DNA of 64,000 nt from an uncultured Actinomycetes bacterium (GCA_963767005.1 CAVYCN010000010.1:64001-128000); one strand, 5' to 3'. Positions 7,201 through 50,676 are shown, numbered from the stretch's first letter. The notes: generated from the sequence alone by a model not told the origin. Translations and numbers: made by a program.

Positions 7201-10200
7201 CGCCCACGGGCTGGGTGGTGATCGCCAGCTTGGCGGCCGCGCCGGGCACATAGGTCACGGTCGCCTGTGTCTGGCTGGCGCCGCCGCTCTTGACCGCGTT
7301 GCCGCCGAGGGTGGCGACGAAGACGCCGCTGCCGGTGGCGGTGGGGGCGGTCACGGTCGCGGTGTAGGTGCCGTTGCCGTTGTCGGTGACCGCGCCGATC
7401 GTGCCGGTGCCCGACGACCTCGTGATCGTGACCGTCGCGCCCCCGCTGGTGAGGCTGTTGCCGTTGGCGTCCTTGGCGGTCACAGTCAGCACCTGGGCAG
7501 CCGTGCCGTTGGCGGTGATGCTGGCGCTGGTCGGCGTGAGGGTCGAGTGCGTGGCGTCGGCCGCGCCCGGGGTCACCTGCACGTTAGCCGAGGTAGCCGA
7601 GCTGAGCCCGCTGGAGGCGAAGGTCAGCGTGTAGTTGGTGCTCACGGTGCCGGCCAGGGTGAGGTTGGTGAAGGTGGCGACACCGCTCGAGGCGGCCACA
7701 CCGCTCGAGGCCTGGCCGCCGCCCAGCGTGCTGCCGCTCGAGGAGGTCACGGTGACCGTGGCGCTGCTGGTCGTCACGTTGCCGGCCGAGTCTTCGATCT
7801 TGACCACGGGCTCGATCGAGAGCAGCGCACCGCAGGCGCCGCCCACCGGCTGGGTGGTGATCGCCAGCTTGGTGGCCGTCCCGACCGTGACCGTGACGTT
7901 AGCCGAGACGGCCGAGCTGAGCCCGCTGGAGGCGAAGGTCAGCGTGTAGTTGGTGCTCACGGTGCCGGCCAGGGTGAGGTTGGTGAAGGTGGCGACACCG
8001 CTCGAGGCGGCCACACCGCTCGAGGCCTGGCCGCCGCCCAGCGTGCTGCCGCTCGAGGAGGTCACGGTGACCGTGGCGCTGCTGCCGGTCACGAGGTTGC
8101 CCTGGGCGTCCTGCACCTGGACGACCGGCTCGGTGCCGAGCAGGCCGCCGCTCGCGCCGCCCACGGGCTGGGTGGTGATCGCCAGCTTGGCGGCCGCGCC
8201 GGGCACATAGGTCACGGTCGCCTGTGTCTGGCTGGCGCCGCCGCTCTTGACCGCGTTGCCGCCGAGGGTGGCGACGAAGACGCCGCTGCCGGTGGCGGTG
8301 GGGGCGGTCACGGTCGCGGTGTAGGTGCCGTTGCCGTTGTCGGTGACCGCGCCGATCGTGCCGGTGCCCGACGACCTCGTGATCGTGACCGTCGCGCCCC
8401 CGCTGGTGAGGCTGTTGCCGTTGGCGTCCTTGGCGGTCACAGTCAGCACCTGGGCAGCCGTGCCGTTGGCGGTGATGCTGGCGCTGGTCGGCGTGAGGGT
8501 CGAGTGCGTGGCGTCGGCCGCGCCCGGGGTCACCTGCACGTTAGCCGAGGTAGCCGAGCTGAGCCCGCTGGAGGCGAAGGTCAGCGTGTAGTTGGTGCTC
8601 ACGGTGCCGGCCAGGGTGAGGTTGGTGAAGGTGGCGACACCGCTCGAGGCGGCCACACCGCTCGAGGCCTGGCCGCCGCCCAGCGTGCTGCCGCTCGAGG
8701 AGGTCACGGTGACCGTGGCGCTGCTGGTCGTCACGTTGCCGGCCGAGTCTTCGATCTTGACGACCGGCTCGGTGCCGAGCAGGCCGCCGCTCGCGCCGCC
8801 CACCGGCTGGGTGGTGATCGCCAGCTTGGTGGCGGCGCCGGCGCCCAGCGTGAACGAGCTCGAGGTGACGGCCGCCAGTGATGTCGGCGTGAAGGTCAGC
8901 GTGTGGGATCCGGCCGTACCCGTCAGAATCAGGTTGCTGAAGGTGGCTCGACCGTTTGTGTCCGTGGTGACCGTGGTCGTGCCGCTCAATGCGCCGCCGC
9001 CCGAGGCGATCGAGGCGACCACGGCGACGCCGGCGACGGCGACGTTGTTGCCGCCCGCGTCGCGGAGCTGGACGACGGGCGCTGTGGCGAGGGGCGCACC
9101 GCTGAGCGCGCCGCCGGGCTGGGTGCTCAGTACGCACGCGGCGGCCGCACCGGACGCGATGGCGACGGAGCCGGAGGTCCCCGTCAAGGAGCCGAACTGG
9201 GACGTTGCCGTGAACGTGTGCTGGCCGGCGAGACCGGTGAACGTGAGCTCGTCGCTCAGGTCGGCGACCCCGTTCATGAAGTCGGACGCCTGGTCCAAGA
9301 CATTGAGACCCAGGGAACCGAGGCCGCCGATGGTCCCATCGTTCGGACTGGCGTAGACCGTGACGTGGTTGCCACTGGCGTCGAAGCTGGTGACGGTGTT
9401 GCCAAAGGCGTCTTCTGCGGTGATCGTGTCCGTGCCCGTCAGCGCCACGCCCACGGTCTGGCCGCTGGTGATGCTGACGGCGAACTTGGCCAGGGGGCCC
9501 GGCACGTAGTTGACGGTCGCCTGCGTCTGGGTCGTGCCGCCGTTCATTATCGGATCGTCGTTCAGAGTGGCTTCGAAGACGCCGCTGCCGGTCGCGGTCG
9601 GGGCGGTGACGGTCGCCGAGTAGGTACCGTCGAGGTTGTCGACGACGGGGCCGATCGTGCCTGAGCCGCCCGAAAGCTCCGTGATGGTGACGCTGTCACC
9701 GCCGAGCGTGAGGTCGTTGCCGTAGGCGTCCTTGACCTGCACCGTGATCGTCTGGCTGCTGCTGCCGTCGGCGGTGATCGAGGAGGTCGTCGGGCCGAGG
9801 GTCGACTGGGCTGCGTCTGCAGCGGCGTTGCTCACGCTGATCTGACCGGAGGTGCTGGCGCTGACGAGGCCGTCGGTCACTGTGAGCGAGACGTCGCTGT
9901 CGGCCATTGTCAGCGTCACCTCGGGCGTGGCGACGCCATCTACGAAATCGATCGAGGTGGGCGATACCGTCCCATCTCCGGTGCTGGCCGTCAGCGTCGC
10001 CGGACCGGCGTAGTCGGTCACGACGTTCCCATAGGCATCGTAGGCGGTCACGCTGACGGCGAAGGGGCTGCCGGCCGTCTGGGAACCACTCACCGCTCCG
10101 ATGTCGAAGTGGTCGAGCGGCCCGGGCGAATAGGTCACCGTCAGCTGCGTCTGGCTTGCCTCGCCGCTTTGCACGGCCTCGCCGTTCAGGGTGGCGACGA

Positions 10201-11413
10201 AGACGGCGCTGCCGGTCGCGGTGGGAGCGGTGACCGTGGCCGTGTACGTGCCGTCGCCGTTGTCCGTCACCGGGCTGACGGTGCCGCCGCCGGAGAGCGC
10301 CGCGATCGTCACGTTTGCGCCGCCGACACCCACGGGGTTGCCGTTCGCGTCGGTGACCGTCACCGTGATGACGGTCGTGCTGGTGCCGTCGGCCGTGATC
10401 GTGGTCGTGGCGCTTGTGAGCGTCGATCGGACCGGGTCGGCGGGACCGGGGACCCCGGTCGCGCTGAAGGTCACGGCGGGAAGCCCGGCGCATGACGCCG
10501 TCAGGCTGTTGGCGCCGGCCGCCGTGCCGAGGGTCCAGCTGCCGACCGTCGCCACGCCGCTGGCGTCGGTGACGGCGGCGGCGTCGGTCACGGTGCCGCC
10601 GCCGCTTGCCACGGCGAAGGTCACGGACGCATGGGGCACAGGACGGCCCTTCGCGTCGGTCACGAGGACGCTCGGGAGCACCGCGACGGCGCTTCCGGCG
10701 ACGGCCGACTGCGTGTCACCGGCGTGGGTGGCCACCTGTGCGGGCGGCGCGGCGATCGTGAAGTGGTAGCTCTTGCCCCAGCGGAACACCTTGCGCCCCT
10801 TGCTGCCGCGCACCTTCCAGGTGAGGGCCACGTAGCTCGGCGGCGCGCTGGGGATCTTCCACGACGTCTTGGCGATGCCCGTCTTCCTCATGATCAGCTT
10901 CGCACCCTGGTAGACGCGCAGTTCGTAGCGGTTGGCACCGCTCACCTTCGCCCAGGCGAACGTCGGCTGCAGCGTCGTGATGGTCCCCTGGGGGACGTTC
11001 GGGTCGATCTTGAACGCCGCGCTCGCGCTCCAGGGCCCCGCGCTCTTGCTACCAACGGCCCGGACCTTCCAGGTCAGCTTGGCGTACAGAGGCAGGCTCG
11101 TGGTTGCCTTCCACGTCCATGAAGTCTTTGCGAGCTTCACCTTGTCGAGGAGCAGCTTGCCGCCCTTGTAGACGCGCAGCTCGTACGTACGTGCGCCGGC
11201 GACCTTGCTCCAGCTGAACGTCGGCTTGACTGCCGTGACAGTGCCGGTCGGCGCCTCGACGACGGGCTTGACCAGGGTCGCAGCCAGCGCGGGAGCGGCG
11301 ACGGCGATGGAGCACAGCAGGAGCGCGGCCAGCAGGCCGAGCCCGGCAAGGCCGCGGCGCGTCGCGCACGCGCGAACGCTTCGGCGGCGATCGTCTTGTG
11401 TGTCAGCGTCCAT
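4208..11413 (-). CDS. Giant secreted adhesin-like protein (2401 aa): signal peptide, two Lys-rich FN3/Ig-like domains, invasin/Big_1-like and tandem Ig-like repeats, C-terminal DUF1566 (Lcl-type, C-lectin-like) domain
   Basis: RBS GGGGAG; signal ending APALA; invasin-like STLT..ITADG...VTDNGDGTYTATVTAP; C-terminus GGGVVAY...YSDWYLPSRDELNWLY...YYWSSSE...AW...VRAVRSF. Confidence 0.9.
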   Translation of the reverse strand: MDADTQDDRRRSVRACATRRGLAGLGLLAALLLCSIAVAAPALAATLVKPVVEAPTGTVTAVKPTFSWSKVAGARTYELRVYKGGKLLLDKVKLAKTSWTWKATTSLPLYAKLTWKVRAVGSKSAGPWSASAAFKIDPNVPQGTITTLQPTFAWAKVSGANRYELRVYQGAKLIMRKTGIAKTSWKIPSAPPSYVALTWKVRGSKGRKVFRWGKSYHFTIAAPPAQVATHAGDTQSAVAGSAVAVLPSVLVTDAKGRPVPHASVTFAVASGGGTVTDAAAVTDASGVATVGSWTLGTAAGANSLTASCAGLPAVTFSATGVPGPADPVRSTLTSATTTITADGTSTTVITVTVTDANGNPVGVGGANVTIAALSGGGTVSPVTDNGDGTYTATVTAPTATGSAVFVATLNGEAVQSGEASQTQLTVTYSPGPLDHFDIGAVSGSQTAGSPFAVSVTAYDAYGNVVTDYAGPATLTASTGDGTVSPTSIDFVDGVATPEVTLTMADSDVSLTVTDGLVSASTSGQISVSNAAADAAQSTLGPTTSSITADGSSSQTITVQVKDAYGNDLTLGGDSVTITELSGGSGTIGPVVDNLDGTYSATVTAPTATGSGVFEATLNDDPIMNGGTTQTQATVNYVPGPLAKFAVSITSGQTVGVALTGTDTITAEDAFGNTVTSFDASGNHVTVYASPNDGTIGGLGSLGLNVLDQASDFMNGVADLSDELTFTGLAGQHTFTATSQFGSLTGTSGSVAIASGAAAACVLSTQPGGALSGAPLATAPVVQLRDAGGNNVAVAGVAVVASIASGGGALSGTTTVTTDTNGRATFSNLILTGTAGSHTLTFTPTSLAAVTSSSFTLGAGAATKLAITTQPVGGASGGLLGTEPVVKIEDSAGNVTTSSATVTVTSSSGSTLGGGQASSGVAASSGVATFTNLTLAGTVSTNYTLTFASSGLSSATSANVQVTPGAADATHSTLTPTSASITANGTAAQVLTVTAKDANGNSLTSGGATVTITRSSGTGTIGAVTDNGNGTYTATVTAPTATGSGVFVATLGGNAVKSGGASQTQATVTYVPGAAAKLAITTQPVGGASGGLLGTEPVVQVQDAQGNLVTGSSATVTVTSSSGSTLGGGQASSGVAASSGVATFTNLTLAGTVSTNYTLTFASSGLSSAVSANVTVTVGTATKLAITTQPVGGACGALLSIEPVVKIEDSAGNVTTSSATVTVTSSSGSTLGGGQASSGVAASSGVATFTNLTLAGTVSTNYTLTFASSGLSSATSANVQVTPGAADATHSTLTPTSASITANGTAAQVLTVTAKDANGNSLTSGGATVTITRSSGTGTIGAVTDNGNGTYTATVTAPTATGSGVFVATLGGNAVKSGGASQTQATVTYVPGAAAKLAITTQPVGGASGGLLGTEPVVQVQDAQGNLVTGSSATVTVTSSSGSTLGGGQASSGVAASSGVATFTNLTLAGTVSTNYTLTFASSGLSSAVSANVTVTVGTATKLAITTQPVGGACGALLSIEPVVKIEDSAGNVTTSSATVTVTSSSGSTLGGGQASSGVAASSGVATFTNLTLAGTVSTNYTLTFASSGLSSATSANVQVTPGAAAKLAITTQPVGGASGGLLGTEPVVQVQDAQGNLVTGSSATVTVTSSSGSTLGGGQASSGVAASSGVATFTNLTLAGTVSTNYTLTFASSGLSSAVSANVTVTVGTATKLAITTQPVGGACGALLSIEPVVKIEDSAGNVTTSSATVTVTSSSGSTLGGGQASSGVAASSGVATFTNLTLAGTVSTNYTLTFASSGLSSATSANVQVTPGAAAKLAITTQPVGGASGGLLGTEPVVQVQDAQGNLVTGSSATVTVTSSSGSTLGGGQASSGVAASSGVATFTNLTLAGTVSTNYTLTFASSGLSSAVSANVTVTVGTATKLAITTQPVGGACGALLSIEPVVKIEDSAGNVTTSSATVTVTSSSGSTLGGGQASSGVAASSGVATFTNLTLAGTVSTNYTLTFASSGLSSAVSANVTVTVGTATKLAITTQPVGGACGALLSIEPVVKVEDAGGNVVTSSSATVTVTSSSGSTLGGGQASSGVAASSGVATFTNLTLAGTVSTNYTLTFASSGLSSAVSANVTVSVGAASKIAVNAGDNQVASPGSAVAVNPSVLVTDVGNNPVSGASVTFAIGSGGGSGTGLTPTTNASGIATVGSWTLGSTAGACTLTATSGSLSGSPVTFHATAIQVGSLYGGGVVAYIFQSGDTGYVAGQCHGLIAALTDQSSGIVWALPAYQSTVVGATSTALGTGLANTTAIIAQNGAGTGYAAGLARAYTGGSYSDWYLPSRDELNWLYTYRAAINATATANGGTAFAASPYYWSSSEGDFFDAWQELFGNGSESDHAKSDTCLVRAVRSF
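5030..8830. repeat. Near-perfect coding tandem array: 10 units of 315/318 bp plus 2 units of 324 bp (higher-order periods 633 and 957 bp)
   Basis: Identical antisense ORF starts at 5094, 5412, 5727, 6045, 6360, 6678, 6993, 7635, 7950 and 8592; spacings 318/315/642. Confidence 0.95.
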
Positions 11414-11685: not shown

Positions 11686-14600
11686 CTACTTGATGATCAG
11701 TTTCTTGGCGGTGAGCCTGGTCTGCCTGTTGCCGGCGAGGTCGACCGCCGACACCTTCCAGGTGTAGCTGCCCGGCTTGAGCTTCGCCTTGTACTTGTAG
11801 ACGAGGTTGCGGTTGGTCGCGGCCTGCTTGATCACGATGCGCTTCACGACCTTCTTCTTGAGGTAGATCGTGATCGTCACCCTCGCGTAGCCGCAGCTCG
11901 GCGATGCGTCGGTCACGCGGTACGACAGCTTGCCGACCTTGTTGTGCTTGATCGTCACATTCTTCAGGCCCTTGCCCGAGGGCTTGCCCAGGTCGATGCG
12001 CACGGTGGCGGAGCGAGCGGGGTTCTCGATCGTCCCGGCCGTGTTCACCGAGCGATAGAGGATGGTGGTCTGGCCGGCCGTGCTGATCGGGAGCGGTGTG
12101 CCCGCGGCGATCGGCGTCCAGGTGCCGCCGCCGTCGCGCGAGTACTCGGTGTGGTCGATCGGGGCGCCGCTGCCCGGTGTCGCGGTGAAGGTCAGCGAGA
12201 CCGGATGGTTCACCCAGGCGGCCGTCGGCAGGCCGTGGATGATCGTGTTCGGCATGGTCGGGTCGATGTTCACCGTGAAGGTGGCGATCGCCGTCGCGTT
12301 GCCGATGGCGTCGCTCGCCGTGTACTCGTAGGTGGAGCTGTGCGGCTGGCCGTCGGTCGGCAGCGGGACGTTCACAGTGGCCTGGGCGGCGTTCACCGGG
12401 GTCCAGGTCGCGGCGCCCTGCAGCCGGTAGTCGATCTGGCTCACACCGGCGCCGGCGTCGATCGCCGACAGGTGCACGGCAACGGCCGCGTTGTGCCAGT
12501 AGGCGTCGGCGTCGTTTGAGACGACCGGGCCCTGGGTGTCGATCTTCACCGAGCAGGTGCCCGTGGCGCTCGTGTTGCCGGCGTTGTCGGTCGCCTGGTA
12601 TTCGTAGGCGTGCACGCCGTCGTTGGAGCCGTCGCTCGGGGCCGGCACGACGAACTGGCCGTTCGTCGCCGGCAACCACGTCGCCGCGCCCTGCAGGCGG
12701 TACTGCACGCTCGCGATGCCGCTGCCGTTCGCGCCGTCGTCGGCCGTCACCGTGACCGTGACCGGCGCGTTGTACCAGGCGCTGTCGCTGTCGTCGCCCA
12801 CGGTCGGCGGCGTCGCGTCGATGTTGACGTAGCCGACGTTGGCCGGCGCCTCGAGGTTGCCGGCGGCGTCGACCGACCAGTATTCGATGGTATGCGAGCC
12901 GTCGCCGCTCACCTGGAACGAGCCGCTGTAGGTCTGTCGCGTGCCGCCGTCGATCGTGTAGTAGGTGGCGGCCACACCGCCGCTCATGCCCGAGGTCTTG
13001 TCGCTCGGCTCGAGCGTGACGGTCTGCGGCGTGGTCGCCCAGCCGGTCGTGGGGCTGCTCTGCAGGTCCTGGGTGGTCGTGGTCGGGGGTGTCTGGTCGA
13101 CGTTCAGGTAGCAGGTCTGCGTCACGCCGTCCACGTGGTAGCTGTTCTCGGCGTAGAAGACGATCACATGGCTGCCGTCGGTGCTCTCGGGGATCGTCAC
13201 CGTGTTGGCCGCAGTCTGCTGCGCGCCGCCGTCGACCGTGTAGTAGATCGTGAACGGCCCGTTGTCGCCGCCGGCGGTGATCGTCGCCGAAGCCGGCCCG
13301 GTGTGCCAGTCGGAGCTCGCGTCGGCGGTGAGGCCGTTGCTCTGCGCGTACGGGTTGGAGATGTTCACCCAGCCGGTGTGCGTGGCCTCGACGTTGCCGG
13401 CCTTGTCGGTCGCGTAGTAGGTGATCTCGTGCTGACCGTCGCCGCTGACCGTGAACTGGCCGCTGTAGGTCTGGGGACTGCCGGTGTCGAGCGTGTAGGT
13501 GATCGACTGCAGGCCCGAGACGGCACCCGTGCCGTCGCTCGCCGAGAGGCTCACTGTCTGGCTCGTGGTGCGCCAGTCGGAGATCGAGTCGGGGGCGAGG
13601 CCGGGGTCGGTCGAGGTCGGCGGCGTGGTGTCGATGTTCACGTAGCCGTGCTCGATGGCCTCGGTGTTGCCGGCGTTGTCGACCGACCAGTACGTGACGG
13701 CGTGCTGGCCGTCGGCGCTGATCGTGAACGGTCCCGTGTAGGTCTGCTGGGCGCCGCCGTCGATCGTGTAGGAGGTCGTCGCCACACCCGACAGGCCGTC
13801 GCTCGCGGTGAGGCTGACGAGCTGTGGCGAGTTCACCCAGCCCGAGTTGCTCGTGGCTGCGAGGTTGGTCGCCGAGGTGACCGGCGCCACGGTGTCGACG
13901 TTCACAAAGCCGACGTGCGGGGTCTCGATGTTGCCGATCTTGTCGACCGACCAATAGACGATGCGGTGGCTCTTCGAGCCGCTGACCGTGAACGCGGCGG
14001 TGTAGGTCTGGCGCGTCCCGCCGTCGAGGGTGTAGTACGTGACGGCCGCGCCGCCGCTCATGCCTGATCCCGCGTCGGACGCGGTCAGGTGGACGAGCTG
14101 GCTCGTCTGCTGCCAGCCGGTGTCGGCACTCGTCTGCAGATCGCTCGTCGTGGTCTGCGGCGCCTGCGTGTCGATCTTGACCGTGCAGGTGTGCAGTGTG
14201 CTCGTGTTGCCGGCGTTGTCGGTCGCCTGGTACTCGTAGGTCTGGGCGCCGTCGTCGCTGCCGCCAGCCGGCGCCGGCACCGTGAAGGCGTTGTTGGTCG
14301 CCGCGAGCCAGGTCGACGAGCCCTGCAGGCGGTACTGCGTGCTCGCCACGCCCGAGCCGCCGGTGTCGGCCGGCGTGAGCTGCACGACGACGTCGCTGTT
14401 GTGCCAGACAGCGTCGCTGTCGTCGGTCACGGTCGGCGGCGTGGTGTCGATGTTCACGTAGCCGAGCTTGGCCGTCTCGCTGTTGCCGGCGTTGTCGACC
14501 GACCAGTAGCCGACCATCGTGGAGCCGGCCGTCGATACCTGGAACGGCGTAATGTAGCTCTGGGTGCCCCCGCTGTTCAGGTTGTACGAGGTGCTTGCCA

Positions 14601-17600
14601 CACCGGAGCCGGTGCCGTCGCCGCCGGTCAAGGTGACCGTCTGGGGCGTGTTCTGCCAGCCCGAATGGTTGTTGGCCTGCAGGCCGAGGGCGCTCGTGGT
14701 GGGGGCGCGCGTGTCGATGTTCACCGTGCAGATGCCGCTGGCGCCGCCGACCACGCTCGCGTTACCGGCGTTGTCGATCGCCCGGTACTCGTAGGCGTGC
14801 GACCCGTCGTTCGAATGGTCGGACGGGGCTGCCACCGTGAAGCTGTTGCCGCTCGTGACGAGCCAGGTCTGGCTGCCCTGCGGCCGGTACTGGGTGGCGG
14901 CGATGCCCGAACCGCTGCCGTCGCTCGGGGTGAGCGTCACCGTGAACGCGGCGTCGTGCCAGGCGGCGCCGGCGTTGTCGGTCACGGTCGGTGCGGTCGT
15001 GTCGATGTTGACGTAGCCGCTGCCGGGGGCCTCGGTGTTGCCGGCCGCGTCGACCGACCAGTACGTGATGTGGTGCGAGCCCTCGGCGCTCACCGTGAAC
15101 GGCGTGCTGTAGGTCTGCTGGGCGCCATCTACCGTGTAGTAGGTGGTCGCGGCGCCCGAGACAGCGTCGCTCGCCGACAGCGTCACAGTCACCGGAGCGT
15201 TCTGCCAGCCGGTGCTCGCGCTCGCGACCAGGTTGGTCGCCGTCGTGGTGGGCGGCGTCGTGTCGATGTTCACGTAGCCGTTGTTGACCGCCTCGGTGTT
15301 GCCGAGCGCGTCGACCGACCAGTACGTGACCTGGTGCTGTCCGTCGCCGGAGACGGTGAAGGCGCCGGAGTAGGTCGCCTGGTCACTGCCGTCGAGCGTG
15401 TAGTACGTGGCGGCCGAGCCGCCGGTCATGCCGGAGCCGGAGTCGCTCGGGGCGAGGGTCACGCTGATTGGCGTCGCGTTCGTCACCCAGCCGCTGTGAT
15501 CGTCCGCCTGCAGGTTCGTGGCGGTCGTTGTCGGCGCCTGGGTGTCGATGTTCACGTAGCCGGTGTGCGTGGTCTCGGCGTTACCGGCGTTGTCGGTCGA
15601 GAAGTAGGTGACCGGGTGCGAGCCGTTCGCCGAGATCACGAACAGTACGGTGTAGGGGGTGGCGCTGCCGCCGTCGACCGTGTAGGTCGTGCTCGCGAGG
15701 CCCGAGCCACCGGTGTCGCTGGGACTCAGCGTGACGCTCTGGCTCGCGGTCTGCCAGCCGGTGGTCGCGCTGGTCTGCAGGCCGGTGGCCGTGGTCGTCG
15801 GCTTGGTCAGGTCGATGTTGCAGTAGCCGGTCTCGTGGACGCTTTGCACGCTCACGCTGTTCGTCGCGTAGTAGCTGACGGCGTGACTGCCCTGCGTGCT
15901 GAACGTCACGCTGGCGGGGCTGGCAGCGGTCGTCCAGGTGGTGCCGCCGTCGGTGCTGTAGGAGACGGTGATCGGCGTGTGGTCGCCGCTGCCCGTGATC
16001 GTCACCGTGGTGGCCGCCTTCTGCCACCCGGAGCTCGCGTCGGGCGCCAGGTTCGTCGCCTGGGCATTCGGGTTGGAGATGTTCACGTAGCCGGTCTTGT
16101 GGACGGTCACGTTGCCCAGCGCGTCGACTGCCCAGTACACGATCGCGTGCGAGGTGTTGACGGTGTTCGCGACGGTGAACGGGCCGGAGTAGGTGGTCTG
16201 GGCGCCGCCGTCGACCGTGTAGTAGATGTGGACCACGCCCGAGCCGGCATCGGTCGCGGCGAGCGTGACCTGCTGGCTCGCGGTCTGCCAGCCGGTCAGG
16301 TCGTCGACCTGCAGGCCGGTCGGTGTGACGACCGGTCCCTGGGTGTCGATCTTGACCGTGCAGGTGTGCGTCGCGCTCGGGTTGCCGGCGTTGTCGAGGG
16401 CGCGGTACTCGTAGATGCGCGCGCCGTCGTTCGAGCCGTCGCTCGGCGCCGCCACGACGAACTGGTTGCCGGTCGCGTCCAGCCACGTCGACGAGCCCTG
16501 CAGCCGGTACTGGGTGCCCGCGACGCCCGAACCGCCGGTGTCGTGCGGCGTGAGCGTGACGGGCACCGGCTGGTTGTGCCAGGCGTCGTCGGCGTCGTCG
16601 GCGACCGTCGGCGCCGTGCTGTCGATGTTCACGTAGCCGGTGTTCTGGCTTTCGATGTTGCCGGCGGCGTCGACCGACCAGTAGAGGACGGTGTGCGAGC
16701 TCTGGCCCGACACGCCGAACGAGTTCGTGTAGGTCTGCGCGGGCTGCGAGTCGAGCTTGTAGTAGGTGGTCGCCGTGCCCGACAGATCGTCGGTGGCGGC
16801 CAGGCTCACCGTCTGGCTCGTGTTCTGCCAGCCGGTCGTGGCGCTGCTCTGCAGGCCGGTCGCCGCGGTCTGCGGCGCTGTCCAGTCGATGTTCACGTAG
16901 CCGACGTTGGCCGGCGTCTCGATGTTGCCGGCCGCGTCGACCGACCAGTAGGTCACGGTGTGCGAGCGCTCGCCGCTCACCTGGAACGCGCCGCTGTAGG
17001 TCTGCTGGGCGCCGCCGTCGAGCGTGTAGTAGGTGGCGGCGCTGCCGTTGGCCATGCCCGATGTGGCGTCGCCGGCCGACAGGTTCACCGTCACCTGGGC
17101 AGCGTTGGTCCAGCCGCTCGTGGCGCTGCTCTGCAGGCCGGTCGCCGTGGTCGTCGGCGGCGTGGGGTCGATGTTCACGTAGCCGACGTTGGCCGGCGTC
17201 TCGACGTTGCCGGCCGCGTCGACCGACCAGTAGGTCACCCTGTGCGAGCGCTCGCCGCTCACCTGGAACGCGCCGCTGTAGGTCTGCTGGGCGCCGCCGT
17301 CGACCGTGTAGTAGGTCGCCGCGCTGCCGCCGGTCATGCCCGACGTCGCGTCGCTCGCGCTCAGGGAGACGCTCTGCGCGGTGGTCACCCAACCGGAGCT
17401 GCCGGTCGTCTGCAGGCCGGTCGCCGTGGTCGTCGGCGGCGCGCCGTCGATGTTCACGTAGCCGGTGTGCTGCGGCTCGATGTTGCCGACCGCGTCGACC
17501 GACCAGTACTTGACGGTGTGCGAGCGCTCGCCGCTCACCTGGAAGGCGCCGCTGTAGGTCTGCATGTCGCCGCCGTCGACCGTGTAGTAGGTCGCCGCGC

Positions 17601-20600
17601 TGCCGCCGGTCATGCCCGCGCCGCCGTCGCTCGCCGTGAAGCGGATCGTCTGGGCGCCGCTTACCCAGCCGCTCGTACCGGTCGTCTGCAGGCCGGTCGC
17701 CGTGGTCGTCGGTGCCGTGCTGTCGATGTTCACGTAGCCGGTGTTGTGCGTGGCGTCGTGCGCCTCGATGTTGCCGGCCACGTCGACCGACCAGTAGGTC
17801 ACCGGGTGCGAGCCGTCGCCGGTCACGAGGAACGGACCGGTGTAGAGCTGAGCCGAGCCGCTGTCGACCGTGTACCAAGTCGACGAGAGGCCCGAGCCGC
17901 CGGTGTCCGACGCGCTCAGCTTGACGGTGACGCCGGTCGTCGACCAGCCGCTCGCCTGGGTCGACTGCAGGTTCGTCGCCGCGGTCTGCGGCGCGGTCAG
18001 GTCGAGGTTCACGTAGCCGGTCTGGTGCAGGCTGTCGATCCCGACGTTGTTGGTCGCCCAGAAGACGACGGGGTGGCTGCCCTGCGTGCTCACCGTGAAC
18101 GAGGCGGGGTCGCTCGCGGCCTTCTGCGGCGTCGTGCCGTCGATGCCGTAGGTGACCGAGATCGGGGCGTGGTCGCCGGAGCCGGTGATCGTCACCGTGG
18201 CGGCGGTGTCCTGCCAGCCCGAGCTGCCATCGGCGGCGAGGCCGGCGGCCTGGGCGTACGGGTTGGAGATGTTGACCCAGCCGGTGTGCACGGCCTCGAC
18301 GTTGCCGGCCGCGTCGGTGGCCCAGTAGGTCACGGGGTGCTGCCCCTGGCCGGAGACGGTGAAGGGCGTCGAGTAGGTCTGGGTGCCGCCGCCGTCGATC
18401 GTGTAGGAGATGCTCGCCACGCCTGAGCCCAGGCCGTCATCGGCCGACAGGCTCACCGTCTGGCTCGTGGTGCGCCAGCCCGAAAGGTCGTCCGCCGCGA
18501 GACCGACAGCCGTCGTGGCCGGCGCGCTCGTGTCGATCCACACCGTGCAGCTGCCGATCGTGCTCGAGTTGCCGGCGTTGTCGAGGGCGCGGTACTGGTA
18601 GACGTGGACGCCGTCGGCGGAGTGGTCGGCCGGTGCCGCCACGGTGAAGGCGTTGCCGGTCGCCGTGGTCCACGTCGAGCCGCCCTGCAGCCGCTCCTGG
18701 GTGCCGGCCAGGCCGCTGCCGCCGCTGTCGGCGGGCGTCAGGTGGACGGTCACCGCCGCGTGGTGCCACAGGCCGTCGGAGTCGTCGGTGACCGTCGGCG
18801 CCGCCAGGTCGATGTTCACGTAGCCGGTGTTGGTAGCCTCGGTGTTGTTGACCGCGTCGACCGACCAGTACGTGACTTTGTGCGAGCCCTGGGTCGAGAT
18901 CGTGAAGGCGCCCGTATAGGTCTGTTTCGTGCCGCTGTCGATCGTGTAGTACGTGGCGGCCACGCCGGACAGAGCGTCGTTGCCGGCCAGGCTGACGACC
19001 TGGCTCACGTTCTGCCAGCCGGTCGTGCCGCTTGCCTGCAGGCCGGTCGCCGTGGTGGTCGGCGCCGAGGTGTCGATGTTCACGTAGCCGGTGTGGGTGG
19101 TCTCGACGTTGCCGGCGTAGTCGGTCGACCAGTAGGTGACGGTGTGCGAGCCGTTGCCGGAGACCGGGAACGGTCCGCCGTAGAGCTGCGCCGCGCCGCC
19201 GTCGACCGTGTACTTGGTCGTGGCCACGCCGGAGACGGCGTCGGTCGCCGTGAGCGTGACCGTCTGGCCGGCCGTCTGCCAGCCGGTGTTGCTCGCCGTC
19301 TGCAGGCTGCTCGTCGTCGTGGTCGGCGCGGTGGCGTCGATGTTGACGTAGCCGGTGTGGCTGGTCTCGGTGTTGCCGCCCTTGTCGACCGACCAGTATG
19401 TGATCTTGTGCGAGCCCTGGGTCGAGATGGTGAAGGGCGCCGTGTAGGTCGTCTGGGCGCCGCTGTCGATCGTGTAGTAGGTGGCGGACACGCCGGATTG
19501 CGAGTCGGTCGCGTTCAGGATGACCTGCTGCCCCGCCGTCTGCCAGGTGCTGCCTGAGGACTGCAGGCCGGTCGCCGTGGTGACCGGCGGGGTCGAGTCG
19601 ATCAGGTAGGTCTGGCAGGTGCCGCCGGCGCCGCAGGCCCACAGGCTGCCGCCGGCGCCGCAGATGCCGCGCTGGGTCTGCGTGGTCGCCGAGGTCTGCG
19701 TCGCCCACGACGAGCCGCCGTTGGTGGTGCGGTAGATCACGCCACCACCGCCGATCACCCAGGCGTTGTTCGCGTCGGTCGCATATGTGTCGTAGAGCGT
19801 CTGCGTCGTGGTCGGGGTGAGGGTCTGCAGCGTCCAGTTCGTGCCGCCGTTCGTCGTGTGGCTGACGGCGCCGGCGCTGCCGGTCACCCAGCCGACCGAC
19901 GAGTTGACGAAGGAGATGCCGCGGAGCTGCTGCGTGGTGCCCGACGTCTGCGCCGTCCAGTTCGTGCCGCCGTTGGTCGTGTGGCGCACGCCGCCGCCCG
20001 TGGTGATCAGCCAGCCGTTGTTTGTGTCCGTAAAGGCGACGCCGTAGATGGTGCTCGTGATGCCCGTGGTCTGCGCCGTCCAGGTGGTGCCGCCGTTCGT
20101 GGTGTGGCGGACGACGCCGCCGGTGGTGCAGAACCAGCCGTTGTTGGCATCGACGAACGACACGCCGTAGATGGTGCCGGTGACGCCCGAGGTCTGCGTG
20201 GCCCAGCTCGTGCCGCCGTTCGTGGTGTGGTAGACGACCCCGCCGCCGCCGACGGCCCAGCCGTTCTGGTTGCCGACGAAGCAGACGCTGCGCAGGCTCT
20301 GCGTGGTGGTCGGCGTCAGCGTCTGGGCGGCCCAAGTCGTGCCGCCGTTGGTGGTGTGCCTGATGTTGCCGGTGCCGCCGGCCAGCCAGCCGTTGCTGGC
20401 GTCGGCGAACCAGGCGCCATACCAGGTGACGTTGACGCCCGGCGACTGCGCCGTCCAGGCGTTGTAGGTGGCGGCCCGCGCCGTCGTCGCGCCGCAGACG
20501 CCGGCGGCGGCCAGGACGACGAGGACGACAGCTACGCAGGCGCCACACAGGCGGCGGCGGCGGCGTGGCCCGGCGAGCGGACGTCTGCTCGACCACGGGT

Positions 20601-20613
20601 ACGCCTTCATCAC
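11686..20613 (-). CDS. Giant secreted protein (2975 aa): YCF48/BNR-like beta-propeller, roughly 25+ chitobiase-C/OmpL47-like Ig repeats, Lys-rich C-terminal domain
   Basis: Signal peptide; repeats GW.VG.GG.VxHTTNGGTxWxxQTSG; repeats DxTxPTTT...TYYTxDGG.QQTYSG.F.VSG...HxVTYWSVDxAGNxE...GYVNID; RBS AAGGGGG. Confidence 0.9.
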   Translation of the reverse strand: MMKAYPWSSRRPLAGPRRRRRLCGACVAVVLVVLAAAGVCGATTARAATYNAWTAQSPGVNVTWYGAWFADASNGWLAGGTGNIRHTTNGGTTWAAQTLTPTTTQSLRSVCFVGNQNGWAVGGGGVVYHTTNGGTSWATQTSGVTGTIYGVSFVDANNGWFCTTGGVVRHTTNGGTTWTAQTTGITSTIYGVAFTDTNNGWLITTGGGVRHTTNGGTNWTAQTSGTTQQLRGISFVNSSVGWVTGSAGAVSHTTNGGTNWTLQTLTPTTTQTLYDTYATDANNAWVIGGGGVIYRTTNGGSSWATQTSATTQTQRGICGAGGSLWACGAGGTCQTYLIDSTPPVTTATGLQSSGSTWQTAGQQVILNATDSQSGVSATYYTIDSGAQTTYTAPFTISTQGSHKITYWSVDKGGNTETSHTGYVNIDATAPTTTTSSLQTASNTGWQTAGQTVTLTATDAVSGVATTKYTVDGGAAQLYGGPFPVSGNGSHTVTYWSTDYAGNVETTHTGYVNIDTSAPTTTATGLQASGTTGWQNVSQVVSLAGNDALSGVAATYYTIDSGTKQTYTGAFTISTQGSHKVTYWSVDAVNNTEATNTGYVNIDLAAPTVTDDSDGLWHHAAVTVHLTPADSGGSGLAGTQERLQGGSTWTTATGNAFTVAAPADHSADGVHVYQYRALDNAGNSSTIGSCTVWIDTSAPATTAVGLAADDLSGWRTTSQTVSLSADDGLGSGVASISYTIDGGGTQTYSTPFTVSGQGQHPVTYWATDAAGNVEAVHTGWVNISNPYAQAAGLAADGSSGWQDTAATVTITGSGDHAPISVTYGIDGTTPQKAASDPASFTVSTQGSHPVVFWATNNVGIDSLHQTGYVNLDLTAPQTAATNLQSTQASGWSTTGVTVKLSASDTGGSGLSSTWYTVDSGSAQLYTGPFLVTGDGSHPVTYWSVDVAGNIEAHDATHNTGYVNIDSTAPTTTATGLQTTGTSGWVSGAQTIRFTASDGGAGMTGGSAATYYTVDGGDMQTYSGAFQVSGERSHTVKYWSVDAVGNIEPQHTGYVNIDGAPPTTTATGLQTTGSSGWVTTAQSVSLSASDATSGMTGGSAATYYTVDGGAQQTYSGAFQVSGERSHRVTYWSVDAAGNVETPANVGYVNIDPTPPTTTATGLQSSATSGWTNAAQVTVNLSAGDATSGMANGSAATYYTLDGGAQQTYSGAFQVSGERSHTVTYWSVDAAGNIETPANVGYVNIDWTAPQTAATGLQSSATTGWQNTSQTVSLAATDDLSGTATTYYKLDSQPAQTYTNSFGVSGQSSHTVLYWSVDAAGNIESQNTGYVNIDSTAPTVADDADDAWHNQPVPVTLTPHDTGGSGVAGTQYRLQGSSTWLDATGNQFVVAAPSDGSNDGARIYEYRALDNAGNPSATHTCTVKIDTQGPVVTPTGLQVDDLTGWQTASQQVTLAATDAGSGVVHIYYTVDGGAQTTYSGPFTVANTVNTSHAIVYWAVDALGNVTVHKTGYVNISNPNAQATNLAPDASSGWQKAATTVTITGSGDHTPITVSYSTDGGTTWTTAASPASVTFSTQGSHAVSYYATNSVSVQSVHETGYCNIDLTKPTTTATGLQTSATTGWQTASQSVTLSPSDTGGSGLASTTYTVDGGSATPYTVLFVISANGSHPVTYFSTDNAGNAETTHTGYVNIDTQAPTTTATNLQADDHSGWVTNATPISVTLAPSDSGSGMTGGSAATYYTLDGSDQATYSGAFTVSGDGQHQVTYWSVDALGNTEAVNNGYVNIDTTPPTTTATNLVASASTGWQNAPVTVTLSASDAVSGAATTYYTVDGAQQTYSTPFTVSAEGSHHITYWSVDAAGNTEAPGSGYVNIDTTAPTVTDNAGAAWHDAAFTVTLTPSDGSGSGIAATQYRPQGSQTWLVTSGNSFTVAAPSDHSNDGSHAYEYRAIDNAGNASVVGGASGICTVNIDTRAPTTSALGLQANNHSGWQNTPQTVTLTGGDGTGSGVASTSYNLNSGGTQSYITPFQVSTAGSTMVGYWSVDNAGNSETAKLGYVNIDTTPPTVTDDSDAVWHNSDVVVQLTPADTGGSGVASTQYRLQGSSTWLAATNNAFTVPAPAGGSDDGAQTYEYQATDNAGNTSTLHTCTVKIDTQAPQTTTSDLQTSADTGWQQTSQLVHLTASDAGSGMSGGAAVTYYTLDGGTRQTYTAAFTVSGSKSHRIVYWSVDKIGNIETPHVGFVNVDTVAPVTSATNLAATSNSGWVNSPQLVSLTASDGLSGVATTSYTIDGGAQQTYTGPFTISADGQHAVTYWSVDNAGNTEAIEHGYVNIDTTPPTSTDPGLAPDSISDWRTTSQTVSLSASDGTGAVSGLQSITYTLDTGSPQTYSGQFTVSGDGQHEITYYATDKAGNVEATHTGWVNISNPYAQSNGLTADASSDWHTGPASATITAGGDNGPFTIYYTVDGGAQQTAANTVTIPESTDGSHVIVFYAENSYHVDGVTQTCYLNVDQTPPTTTTQDLQSSPTTGWATTPQTVTLEPSDKTSGMSGGVAATYYTIDGGTRQTYSGSFQVSGDGSHTIEYWSVDAAGNLEAPANVGYVNIDATPPTVGDDSDSAWYNAPVTVTVTADDGANGSGIASVQYRLQGAATWLPATNGQFVVPAPSDGSNDGVHAYEYQATDNAGNTSATGTCSVKIDTQGPVVSNDADAYWHNAAVAVHLSAIDAGAGVSQIDYRLQGAATWTPVNAAQATVNVPLPTDGQPHSSTYEYTASDAIGNATAIATFTVNIDPTMPNTIIHGLPTAAWVNHPVSLTFTATPGSGAPIDHTEYSRDGGGTWTPIAAGTPLPISTAGQTTILYRSVNTAGTIENPARSATVRIDLGKPSGKGLKNVTIKHNKVGKLSYRVTDASPSCGYARVTITIYLKKKVVKRIVIKQAATNRNLVYKYKAKLKPGSYTWKVSAVDLAGNRQTRLTAKKLIIK

Positions 20614-48582: not shown

Positions 48583-50676
48583 ATGCGAGCAGCGGCCAGG
48601 CACCGGCTGGTCATGGGCGGTCACGTCAGTGTCGTCATCATCGTCTCTCTGCTTGCCCTCGGCGGCACCGCCTGGGCGCTCGCCGGTTGGGTGACGCAGC
48701 CCTCGGGCATGAACACCGGCCTCGCCGCTGTCGCCCTATCCGGGTCGAGCGACGGCTGGGCCGTGGGCGCCGGCGGCGTCATCCTGCATACGACCGATGG
48801 TGGCAGCGCCTGGGCGGCCCAGACCTCCGGGCTGGGCAGCGACCTTGCGGGCGTCGCCTTCGCCGACGCCGCCGACGGCTGGGCCGTGGGCGCCGGCGGC
48901 GTCATCCTGCATACGACCGATGGTGGCAGCGCCTGGGCGGCCCAGACCTCCGGGCTGGGCAGCGACCTTGCGGGCGTCGCCTTCGCCGACGCCGCCGACG
49001 GCTGGGCCGTGGGCGCCGGCGGCGTCATCCTGCATACGACCGATGGTGGCAGCGCCTGGGCGGCCCAGACCTCCGGGCTGGGCAGCGACCTTGCGGGCGT
49101 CGCCTTCGCCGACGCCGCCGACGGCTGGGCCGTGGGCGCCGGCGGCGTCATCCTGCATACGACCGATGGTGGCAGCGCCTGGGCGGCCCAGACCTCCGGG
49201 CTGGGCAGCGACCTTGCGGGCGTCGCCTTCGCCGACGCCGCCGACGGCTGGGCCGTGGGCGCCGGCGGCGTCATCCTGCATACGACCGATGGTGGCAGCG
49301 CCTGGGCGGCCCAGACCTCCGGGCTGGGCAGCGACCTTGCGGGCGTCGCCTTCGCCGACGCCGCCGACGGCTGGGCCGTGGGCGCCGGTGGCGTCATCCT
49401 GCATACGACCGATGGTGGCGCGAGCTGGACCTCGCAGACAGCGCCGGCCGGCACGACCGGCCTCGTCGCGGTGGCGGCGGTGAGCGCGCGACGGGCGAGC
49501 GCGGTCGGCGCGCAGGGGGCGATCTGCGCGACGGTGAGCAGCGGCGAGACCGATGCCACGCCGCCGACGACCGTCGCGACGGGGCTCGAGACCGACGCCC
49601 ACAGCGGCTGGCGCGACACCGCGGCGACCGTGTCCCTGGCCGCCACCGACACCGGCTCAGGCGTCGCCGCCACCTACGTCAGCGTCGACGGCGTCACGGC
49701 CAGGGCCTACGCGGCGCCCTTCACGATCTCGGCAGCCGGGTCGCATACCGTCGCGTACTGGTCGGTCGACGGCGCCGGCAACGTCGAGGCCCGCCAGACC
49801 GGCTACGTGAACATCGACAAGGGTCGCCCTACGTGCCTCGCGATCTCTCGCGTCGACACGCGGCCCGACACGACCGTGAGCTTCGTCTTTCGGGTCAACG
49901 ACCCGCTGCCGAGCTGCGGCAAGGCCGACGTGAAGATCGTGGTCAAGCGCGGCGGCAAGGTGCTCCAGACGATCACCCTGGCCGCTCTGCGCGTCAACGT
50001 GCGGCATACCTACAGCGAGCATCTGCACCTGGGCTACGGCGCCTACACGTGGGTCGTGACCGCGACCGACCTGGCCGGCAACGCCCAGCGCAGGGCCGGC
50101 AGCAACGCGCTACGCATCGTGTTGTGGCCGATCCACACCACGGCCGACGTGCAGCGCTGCCTCGTACACCTCAAGTACCTGCCGTCCGGCGCGGTCAGCG
50201 GTCGGCTCGACTACCGCACCGAGCAGGCGCTCACGGCCTTCCAGGCCTGGACCGGGCTCGTCCGCGACGGGATCGACGGCGTGAAGACGCGCAACGCGCT
50301 CGAGATGGCGAGATCGCCGCAGCCCCGGCGCGAGTCGGCGAGCGGCCACTACGCCGAAGTGTTCCGCAGCCTGGGTGTGCTGATCTGCGTGAACGACGGC
50401 AAGCTCGTCCGGGTCGTGCACTGCTCGACCGGCCGTCCCAGCCTGCCGACGCCTGCCGGGCGCTTCAGCATCTTCGTGAAGTCGCTCGACTGGTGGTCGA
50501 CCGCCTACGGCGACTGGATGCCGTTCGCGAGCTTCTTCTCGGGCGGCGATGCCATCCACGGCTTCCCCTACGTGCCCGCCTATCCGGCGTCGCACGGCTG
50601 CGTGCGCATCTCGATGCCCGAGGCGCCGTGGGTCTACACGTTCATGTACTACGGCGCGGCCGTCTTCGTCTACTGA
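48583..50676 (+). CDS. Secreted multidomain L,D-transpeptidase: YCF48/BNR propeller, Ig repeat, shared basic domain, PG-binding domain, YkuD
   Basis: Propeller repeats; YWSVDGAGNVE; TEQALTAFQAWTGLVRDGIDG; STG...TPAGRF; DAIHG...PAYPASHGCVR. Confidence 0.88.
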   Translation: MRAAARHRLVMGGHVSVVIIVSLLALGGTAWALAGWVTQPSGMNTGLAAVALSGSSDGWAVGAGGVILHTTDGGSAWAAQTSGLGSDLAGVAFADAADGWAVGAGGVILHTTDGGSAWAAQTSGLGSDLAGVAFADAADGWAVGAGGVILHTTDGGSAWAAQTSGLGSDLAGVAFADAADGWAVGAGGVILHTTDGGSAWAAQTSGLGSDLAGVAFADAADGWAVGAGGVILHTTDGGSAWAAQTSGLGSDLAGVAFADAADGWAVGAGGVILHTTDGGASWTSQTAPAGTTGLVAVAAVSARRASAVGAQGAICATVSSGETDATPPTTVATGLETDAHSGWRDTAATVSLAATDTGSGVAATYVSVDGVTARAYAAPFTISAAGSHTVAYWSVDGAGNVEARQTGYVNIDKGRPTCLAISRVDTRPDTTVSFVFRVNDPLPSCGKADVKIVVKRGGKVLQTITLAALRVNVRHTYSEHLHLGYGAYTWVVTATDLAGNAQRRAGSNALRIVLWPIHTTADVQRCLVHLKYLPSGAVSGRLDYRTEQALTAFQAWTGLVRDGIDGVKTRNALEMARSPQPRRESASGHYAEVFRSLGVLICVNDGKLVRVVHCSTGRPSLPTPAGRFSIFVKSLDWWSTAYGDWMPFASFFSGGDAIHGFPYVPAYPASHGCVRISMPEAPWVYTFMYYGAAVFVY
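48751..49420. repeat. 123-bp perfect coding tandem repeat, 5 copies plus a partial sixth
   Basis: Units start at 48751, 48874, 48997, 49120, 49243 and 49366; unit peptide DGWAVGAGGVILHTTDGGSAWAAQTSGLGSDLAGVAFADAA. Confidence 0.95.

What the first reader, a model, noticed from the sequence alone, without database searches (positions are those of the whole stretch)
11686..12005. Shared basic ~100 aa domain links the 2975 aa protein to an L,D-transpeptidase: candidate undescribed surface-anchoring system
Seen: the C-terminus of the 2975 aa protein (VRIDLGKP...LSYRVTDASPSCGYARVTITI..KKKVVKRI...N....Y...LKPGSYTWKVSAVDLAGNRQ......LIIK) aligns with an internal domain of the 697 aa protein at about 49807-50120 (VNIDKGRP...FVFRVNDPLPSCGKADVKIVV..GGKVLQTI...N....Y...LGYGAYTWVVTATDLAGNAQ......LRIV). 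The 697 aa protein looks like a miniature of the giant (same propeller, one copy of the same Ig repeat, same domain) plus PG-binding and YkuD domains. Neither giant protein has an LPxTG, SLH or C-terminal TM anchor. Known: some L,D-transpeptidases attach proteins covalently to peptidoglycan. Inference: this Lys/Arg-rich domain with conserved PSCG and DLAGNxQ is a lineage-specific wall/S-layer targeting or sorting module, and the YkuD fusion may tether that layer to the wall.
Basis: partly seen in the sequence, partly recalled or inferred. Interest (0 to 1): 0.7.

Follow-up and report, generated by a model that had tools for sequence, protein, structure and literature searches.

The report
Basic Ig tail on exported proteins
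A giant surface protein and a cell-wall cross-linking enzyme of an uncultured actinobacterium share a positively charged, uncatalogued immunoglobulin-like domain found on 19 predicted exported proteins in this genome; it likely holds them on the negatively charged cell wall, and the enzyme is likely just one more carrier, not the machine that attaches the others.

Summary
In detail: the two domains are 36% identical, their subfamilies are sister clades, and the 697-aa protein matches the giant's propeller plus first repeat at 44%. The domain is a basic, single-copy offshoot of Big_13-type Ig repeats, and the two window copies fall below the Pfam cut-off. It occurs once in each of 19 proteins of this Thermoleophilia genome, 13 at the very C-terminus, all with signal-peptide-like starts. 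It is multicopy in 35 of 35 family genomes and in a second actinobacterial lineage. PSCG is not a family motif (3 of 19) and D-x-x-G-N is generic Ig. The L,D-transpeptidase (LDT) tether is not supported: the fusion is in 23 of 81 family genomes, one relative has a 58%-identical giant and no fused LDT, and the terminal residue is Arg as often as Lys. Best reading (about 0.6, untested): a non-covalent, charge-based cell-surface anchor, with the LDT as a passenger. The scan noted this domain before in other genomes; the LDT test and internal copies appear new.

The parts
11686..20613 (-). Giant exported protein, 2975 aa from the first GTG (2974 aa from ATG at 20610): signal peptide, propeller, 28 acidic Ig repeats, basic terminal Ig domain
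   Evidence: 57.7% identical over 2949 aa to a G013 protein
20473..20613 (-). Predicted signal peptide of the giant (Arg-rich start, hydrophobic core, A-x-A at about residue 47)
   Evidence: sequence; heuristic only
19609..20466 (-). Ycf48/BNR-type beta-propeller, inferred distal tip
   Evidence: PSII_BNR 96 bits; 123-bp repeats
12010..19608 (-). Stalk of 28 acidic Ig-like repeats (Big_13 / CHB_HEX_C_1 hits); net charge of the mature protein without the terminal domain is -151
11689..12009 (-). Basic terminal Ig-like domain, 107 aa, net +23, computed pI 10.7
48583..50676 (+). 697-aa exported fusion: signal peptide, propeller, one stalk-type Ig repeat, basic domain, PG_binding_1, YkuD
48583..48678 (+). 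Predicted signal peptide of the LDT fusion
   Evidence: sequence; heuristic only
48688..49542 (+). Ycf48/BNR-type propeller homologous to the giant's
49552..49803 (+). Single acidic stalk-type Ig repeat
49804..50121 (+). Internal copy of the basic domain, 106 aa, net +8; its subfamily is sister to the giant's
50146..50301 (+). PG_binding_1 domain
   Evidence: 33.3 bits, cut-off 23
50380..50670 (+). YkuD L,D-transpeptidase domain with the His and SHGC catalytic motif intact
   Evidence: 50.6 bits; motif; PG_binding_1+YkuD part matches PDB 4lpq, E 2e-24

Best explanation
The shared unit is a positively charged, single-copy Ig-like domain related to Big_13 repeats that likely works as a non-covalent cell-surface anchor, binding an anionic wall polymer by charge, and the L,D-transpeptidase is likely one of its passengers. 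Shown: one copy per protein; mostly terminal; basic, while stalk repeats are acidic; carried by proteins with signal-peptide-like starts and very different cargo (propellers, A4 and C1 proteases, an amidase, a beta-lactamase-like enzyme, an LDT). Predicted: beta-sandwich fold. Inferred steps: Sec export; folding outside the membrane; the basic domain sticks to an LCP-attached anionic glycopolymer or other polyanion; the acidic stalk is held away so the propeller tip is displayed. The 697-aa gene likely arose when a PG_binding_1-YkuD cassette was appended to a short paralogue of the giant, which turned a terminal domain into an internal one. The ligand is not identified.
For: 19 copies, one per protein, cleanly separated from other Ig domains (CTD-profile score 79-129 vs at most 37 bits). 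Median net charge +8 (1 to 23) vs -6.5 for 64 other Ig domains. 14 of 19 pass a signal-peptide heuristic vs 321 of 3033 other proteins, p 2e-10; four more show the signal upstream of a miscalled start and one in an upstream frame. Terminal in 13 of 19 here, 25 of 29 in G013+G043 and 10 of 11 in G505. Charge is kept at about 40% GC in G505 (+10 to +33), so it is not a GC artefact. The invariant residues look like Ig core positions (P, G-x-Y, D-x-x-G-N, L), while K/R swap freely at many sites. Internal copies lie in front of enzymes expected to act on the wall: LDT, beta-lactamase-like, and by eye a deacetylase-like and a PG-binding-like segment. Other basic Ig-like ends occur on acidic exported proteins of the same genome, including the N-terminal end of the neighbouring invasin-like giant. 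The genome has no Omp85 and four LCP proteins. Precedent: the basic TAB domain of Lactobacillus SlpA binds teichoic acid and also occurs on hydrolases (PMC11181022, passages).
Against: No binding data. No ligand pathway tracks with the domain: no TagF/TagB-type polymerase in G000; pyruvyltransferase in only 10 of 35 family genomes, 0 of 5 other carriers, and 24 of 35 genomes of a family that mostly lacks the domain. Some copies are barely basic (+1 to +3 in this genome; beta-lactamase-like subfamily median +1.5). Many known wall-binding modules come in tandem (own knowledge), whereas this one was single in 67 of 67 homologues, as a sorting signal would be. Signal peptides rest on a heuristic and on reading by eye.
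Confidence: 0.6

Rival explanations
1. The domain is a fold-based C-terminal sorting signal, a monoderm analogue of the T9SS CTD, read by an unknown export or processing machine and possibly cleaved.
For: Single copy, terminal, after a signal peptide and Ig stalk, on unrelated cargo, as for the T9SS CTD (PMC4804311, passages). Conserved last strand L-x-V-x. The C-terminal 110 residues of PorU align at Z 9.4-9.6, rmsd 4.3, 98-99 residues.
Against: Conserved internal copies in front of catalytic domains (24 LDT loci, 6 beta-lactamase-like) and a 19-72 aa tail in a propeller subfamily. No Omp85. Exosortase 0 of 41 family genomes. The PorU match is tied with PKD, CARDB and other unrelated Ig folds. 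No candidate machinery seen next to the genes in the four clusters inspected.
Confidence: 0.14
2. One reading: an L,D-transpeptidase, fused or free-standing, links these proteins covalently to peptidoglycan through a lysine of the domain.
For: The LDT has intact catalytic residues and its domain subfamily is sister to the giant's, 100/96. The giant ends in Lys. All five carrier genomes tested have 3-6 YkuD proteins and G000 has 8. LDTs attach proteins by a C-terminal Lys, an N-terminal Ala/Gly or an internal residue, and the Lpp-like box tolerates substitutions (PMC12274547, passages).
Against: Fusion in 23 of 81 family genomes. 0 of 22 YkuD proteins in five domain-rich genomes carry the domain (best 15 bits), including G013 with its 58%-identical giant. 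Terminal residue is Lys in 4 of 13 (G000), 18 of 47 and 7 of 25, Arg in 5, 18 and 13; the G011 copy that is 82% identical to the giant's domain ends in Arg. No position exceeds 53% Lys. The two genes lie 28 kb apart on opposite strands.
Confidence: 0.1
3. The domain binds an external polyanion (EPS, extracellular DNA, humic or mineral surfaces), or is only a capping or folding unit of Ig stalks with no anchoring role.
For: Fold and core motifs are generic Ig. No wall-polymer gene tracks with it. Charge alone does not name a ligand.
Against: It also ends proteins with no stalk. It lies opposite the propeller tips. It is kept on enzymes expected to act on the cell's own wall.
Confidence: 0.16

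Closest known systems
Pfam Big_13 (PF19077) / BIg repeats of giant adhesins (PDB 2yn3, 6xi3)
   Same: Ig beta-sandwich with D-T-x-x-P start, G-x-Y and D-x-x-G-N hairpin; all 19 copies match weakly; the profile finds 6xi3 and 2yn3 at E about 1e-9 to 1e-8.
   Different: The best generic repeats are tandem, acidic or near neutral, and score at most 39 bits on this family's profile. This domain is single, basic and mostly terminal. The two window copies score 24.5 and 20.3 bits, below the 27-bit cut-off.
T9SS C-terminal domain (type A PF18962; PorU C-terminal region)
   Same: One Ig-like domain at the end of signal-peptide proteins with varied cargo; PorU 1047-1156 aligns at Z 9.4-9.6.
   Different: Host lacks Omp85; conserved internal copies exist; the structural match does not stand above unrelated Ig folds.
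FlgD Ig-like domain (PF13860)
   Same: 11 of 19 copies match weakly, best E 1.9e-4; true FlgD-Ig domains precede one copy in the amidase.
   Different: The W-D-G loop typical of FlgD-Ig (recalled; visible in the amidase's FlgD domains) is missing from the alignment.
Lactobacillus SlpA TAB domain (teichoic-acid-binding C-terminal domain)
   Same: Basic terminal module that holds different exported proteins on an anionic wall polymer without covalent linkage (PMC11181022, passages): the closest functional model.
   Different: TAB is two SlpA motifs with a defined phosphate-binding motif; this is one Ig sandwich. No sequence match was listed, and G000 has no TagF/TagB-type polymerase.
LDT-anchored proteins (Braun lipoprotein Lpp, OutB, tethered beta-barrels)
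   Same: An intact YkuD enzyme is present; some carriers end in Lys.
   Different: Described in diderms (PMC12274547, passages). Here terminal Lys is not conserved and the fused LDT is missing from most carrier genomes.

Membership tests
Pfam Big_13 (PF19077) | Score at or above the gathering cut-off (27 bits) | tested here: not met
   24.5 and 20.3 bits for the two window copies; best E among 19 copies 2.3e-6, bits not shown
Pfam Big_13 (PF19077) | Ig beta-sandwich with G-x-Y and D-x-x-G-N core motifs | tested here: met
   AlphaFold2 pLDDT 85.4, all-beta; invariant columns
FlgD_ig (PF13860) | Score at the cut-off, and the W-D-G loop (recalled) | tested here: not met
   best E 1.9e-4 among 19, no match listed for the giant's copy; loop absent from alignment A1
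T9SS CTD | Terminal Ig-like sandwich on a signal-peptide protein | tested here: met
T9SS CTD | Specific structural or sequence kinship to solved CTDs | tested here: inconclusive
   PorU C-terminal region Z 9.4-9.6, rmsd 4.3, tied with unrelated Ig folds; PF18962 0 in G000 but no control genome rang
T9SS CTD | Outer membrane to cross | tested here: not met
   Omp85 0 in a 100%-complete genome, 7 of 14 controls rang
T9SS CTD | PorU-type C25 peptidase in the genome | tested here: inconclusive
   0 of 41 genomes, but no control rang
T9SS CTD | Domain cleaved off during surface attachment | not testable with these tools
   needs proteomics
LDT-anchored proteins (Lpp type) | Conserved C-terminal Lys acceptor | tested here: not met
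   Lys in 4 of 13, 18 of 47 and 7 of 25 terminal copies
LDT-anchored proteins (Lpp type) | LDT present wherever the substrates are | tested here: inconclusive
   fused LDT in 23 of 81; free-standing YkuD proteins in 5 of 5 genomes tested
LDT-anchored proteins (Lpp type) | Covalent protein-muropeptide link | not testable with these tools
   needs sacculus mass spectrometry
Sortase (LPxTG) substrates | LPxTG motif, hydrophobic segment, basic tail | tested here: not met
   none of the 19 carriers in the heuristic scan; one sortase gene is present
SLH-anchored proteins | SLH repeats (PF00395) | tested here: not met
   0 in G000, 4 of 14 controls rang
SlpA TAB domain | Two SlpA motifs | tested here: inconclusive
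   not among the Pfam matches shown (25 of 38 families displayed) or the fold matches listed
SlpA TAB domain | Binding to an anionic wall polymer | not testable with these tools
   needs a binding assay
YkuD L,D-transpeptidase (697-aa protein) | PF03734 above cut-off with catalytic His and SHGC motif | tested here: met
   50.6 bits vs 23.4; motif

The most novel reading that the evidence does not exclude
Deep-branching, uncultured Actinomycetota use this Ig-like domain as the address label of an undescribed surface-sorting system: a monoderm counterpart of the T9SS CTD that is read by a dedicated receptor or covalently fixed to peptidoglycan by free-standing L,D-transpeptidases.
Probability: 0.2. 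Interest if true: 0.8.

Novelty: new variant of a known kind. Interest (0 to 1): 0.42.

Why it matters
The family has no SLH here, and its one sortase has no obvious LPxTG substrates, yet it exports giant Ig-stalk proteins and many hydrolases. This domain offers a candidate for how they stay on the cell, and its profile is a marker for surface proteins in a lineage known from metagenomes (3 to at least 24 hits per genome). A 105-aa single-domain wall anchor would be easy to test and could serve as a display tag. If the sorting or covalent reading held, it would be a new protein-anchoring route in monoderms. As it stands it is a basic variant of a very common fold with an inferred function.

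Tried and rejected
Unrestricted profile iteration drifted into stalk repeats (19 to 83 hits); I kept the 19-seed model. The search of 1.84 billion representatives was swamped by giant tandem-Ig proteins (150 of 150 listed had no domain at 45 bits or more), so it gave no count or range for the family. In one search, 25 of 92 hits lacked a full domain and were dropped before counting. Viral contigs: 17 pattern matches, none confirmed. NCBIfam: best E 7.8e-6 (OmpL47-type), no clear family. ESM Atlas: only generic Ig clusters at 0.83-0.84, leads only. A single-sequence fold of the LDT's C-terminal 375 aa failed (pLDDT 31.9). Pyruvylated-polymer ligand rejected on distribution. Classical teichoic-acid polymerase not found in G000. 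PF18962 and PF01364 searches were blank with silent controls, so uninformative. No RNA holder was listed. No TAB, SLH or FlgD structure among the listed fold matches. The PorU structure paper was not held, so reading residues 1047-1156 as its CTD is recalled. No complex prediction was run, since no protein-protein binding is claimed. Literature searches listed no paper that, by title or abstract start, describes this domain; subscription journals and supplements were not seen.

Full report
Observation. The window holds the 2975-aa ORF at 11686-20613(-) and the 697-aa ORF at 48583-50676(+). The last 107 residues of the first and residues 408-513 of the second are 36% identical, E 3e-19. The small protein also matches the giant's propeller and first Ig repeat at 44% over 381 residues, then continues into PG_binding_1 and YkuD domains, both above their cut-offs, with the catalytic His and SHGC motif intact.

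Host. Record titles of close relatives name Thermoleophilia and uncultured Actinomycetes; the family is not named by any search. The genome (3.4 Mb, about 71% GC, rated 100% complete) has no Omp85 and no SLH, one sortase, eight YkuD proteins and four LCP proteins, as expected for a monoderm.

A family, not a pair. A profile of the two copies found 19 copies in the genome, one per protein, and a profile of those 19 separates them from other Ig domains (79-129 bits vs at most 37). Thirteen are at the very C-terminus, four are followed by a 53-68 aa tail, and two are internal (the LDT and a beta-lactamase-like protein). Cargo includes Ycf48-type propellers, three A4 proteases, a C1 protease, an amidase and pure Ig stalks. 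A signal-peptide heuristic on my own gene calls (3052 proteins) passed 14 of 19 carriers against 321 of 3033 others, p 2e-10. Four of the five misses show a signal upstream of a miscalled start; the fifth is the second half of a frameshifted gene whose first half has one. The position bias holds elsewhere: 25 of 29 copies within 8 residues of the stop in G013 and G043 (30 loci fetched, 29 scored). Among 67 database homologues with a full domain (of 92 hits) 29 were terminal, 32 tailed and 6 internal, always one per protein; this set is skewed towards the query's subfamilies.

Range. Matches were found in 18 of 18 and 35 of 35 other genomes of the family, 3 to at least 24 per genome with the profile, against 19 of 165 genomes of other families in the class with one or two mostly weak hits (only 24 candidates scored per genome). 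In five such genomes examined in full, several weak hits are basic terminal Ig domains of more distant type and one is a clear member. Across the phylum 2 of 300 other genomes matched. One, G505, of another class and about 40% GC, has 11 copies, 10 terminal, net charge +10 to +33; 4 of 48 genomes of its class carry it.

What it is. AlphaFold2 gives an all-beta model (pLDDT 85.4). The best structural match is a PKD domain (Z 11.8, rmsd 2.2, 94 residues); collagenase PKD, CARDB and the C-terminal region of PorU follow at Z 9-10, tied. All 19 copies match Big_13 weakly and 11 match FlgD_ig weakly; the window copies are below cut-off. The best generic repeats among 150 giant proteins score at most 39 bits, and the 15 best are all acidic or near neutral. 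In 112 copies the near-invariant residues are Ig-core-like (D6, P10, D34, G80, Y82, D90, G93, N94, L104). PSCG is confined mostly to one branch (26 of 112, in a set enriched for it; 3 of 19 in the genome), where its Cys usually has a partner near residue 12 that the giant's copy lacks. What marks the family is Gln96, the last strand, and charge: median +8 vs -6.5 for other Ig domains, and +23 against -151 for the rest of the giant.

The LDT link. A 45-row tree, chosen from the 112 copies plus the G013 giant and five G505 copies as outgroup, puts the giant-type and LDT-type domains as sisters (100/96), nested among terminal copies (LG+G4, 108 columns). With the continuous propeller-repeat homology and the match of the PG_binding_1-YkuD part to free-standing enzymes (PDB 4lpq), I infer that an LDT cassette was appended to a short paralogue of the giant. 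A second fusion outside this clade exists in G015 (L047). This explains the resemblance by descent. It does not make the LDT the anchoring machine: the fusion is in 23 of 81 family genomes (checked; at most 30 candidates scored per genome); none of 22 YkuD proteins in five domain-rich genomes carries the domain, and one of these, G013 (94% complete), has a 57.7%-identical full-length giant. Known LDT substrates are linked through a C-terminal Lys, an N-terminal Ala/Gly or an internal residue (PMC12274547, passages seen). Here terminal copies end in Lys 4 of 13, 18 of 47 and 7 of 25 times and in Arg 5, 18 and 13 times (these sets overlap in part), and no column exceeds 53% Lys. Free-standing LDTs are present in every genome tested, so promiscuous covalent attachment is unlikely but not excluded.

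Mechanism. Most likely (0.6) the proteins are exported by Sec, and the basic domain binds an anionic wall polymer non-covalently while the acidic stalk projects the propeller. Support is indirect: charge kept across GC regimes with free K/R exchange; tolerance of internal positions in front of wall-acting enzymes; and other basic Ig-like ends on acidic exported proteins of the same genome, including two at the N-terminus of the neighbouring 2401-aa invasin-like protein, where invasins have their anchor (own knowledge). The functional precedent is the basic TAB domain of Lactobacillus SlpA (PMC11181022, passages). In the passages I saw of a review of monoderm wall-attachment domains, none of this kind was named (PMC5817068; table seen only in part). 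Against: no ligand pathway tracks with the domain, some copies are almost neutral, and strict single copy recalls the T9SS CTD (PMC4804311, passages). A sorting signal (0.14) is weakened by internal copies, the lack of an outer membrane and exosortase 0 of 41. Covalent LDT attachment gets 0.10, and an external ligand or a mere cap 0.16.

Novelty. No family model names the domain, and seven searches listed no paper describing it (listings and abstract starts only). Earlier notes of this scan describe what appears to be the same domain in other genomes with the same reading; my reading was recorded before I saw them, and they are not independent evidence. One note calls it strictly C-terminal, which the internal copies here contradict. 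Verdict: a new, lineage-expanded variant of a common Ig fold, probably a non-covalent surface anchor; the LDT tether is not supported. Interest 0.42.

Noticed in passing
window 4208-11413 (-): 2401-aa invasin-like protein (Big_1/Invasin_D3 stalk, C-terminal Lcl_C) lacks the domain but starts with two basic ~90-aa repeats (net +12, +14; rest -55) found nowhere else in the genome; possibly an N-terminal anchor.
   Followed up: partly
G000 C4:530244-533225(-) and C16:5614-8211(-): Two acidic exported proteins end in a second, different basic ~100-aa beta domain (net +16, +20; 13 bits on the main profile).
   Followed up: partly
L014 (G000 C2:152835-157830, +): A signal-peptide, repeat-propeller and Ig-stalk gene ending in the domain is split over two frames; assembly error or real frameshift not resolved.
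   Followed up: partly
L006, L008, L012, L015: A twin-propeller subfamily carries a tail after the domain (53-68 aa here, 19-72 aa in homologues) with a conserved Pro/Trp-rich start, then a variable segment; function unexplained.
   Followed up: no
window 48750-49419 (+): The LDT's propeller blades are 123-bp repeats, 5.4 copies at 99% identity: recent homogenisation or a collapsed assembly.
   Followed up: no
window 2320-3903 (+): A second YkuD protein without the domain lies beside the two giants; its motif reads SLGC, not SHGC.
   Followed up: no
L015 and L017 (G000 C4:556659-558098, C4:9460-11064): Two exported deacetylase-like proteins (by eye) carry a basic FlgD-like domain that scores 27-30 bits on the family profile, an intermediate between FlgD-Ig and this family.
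   Followed up: partly
L079-L087 (G505): A small, ~40% GC genome of another actinobacterial class has 11-12 copies, including on 3099- and 3262-aa proteins, one followed by a PG-binding-like segment.
   Followed up: partly
window 28534-33789 (+): 1751-aa signalling protein with 7TM, PAS, four GAF, GGDEF and two HD domains.
   Followed up: no
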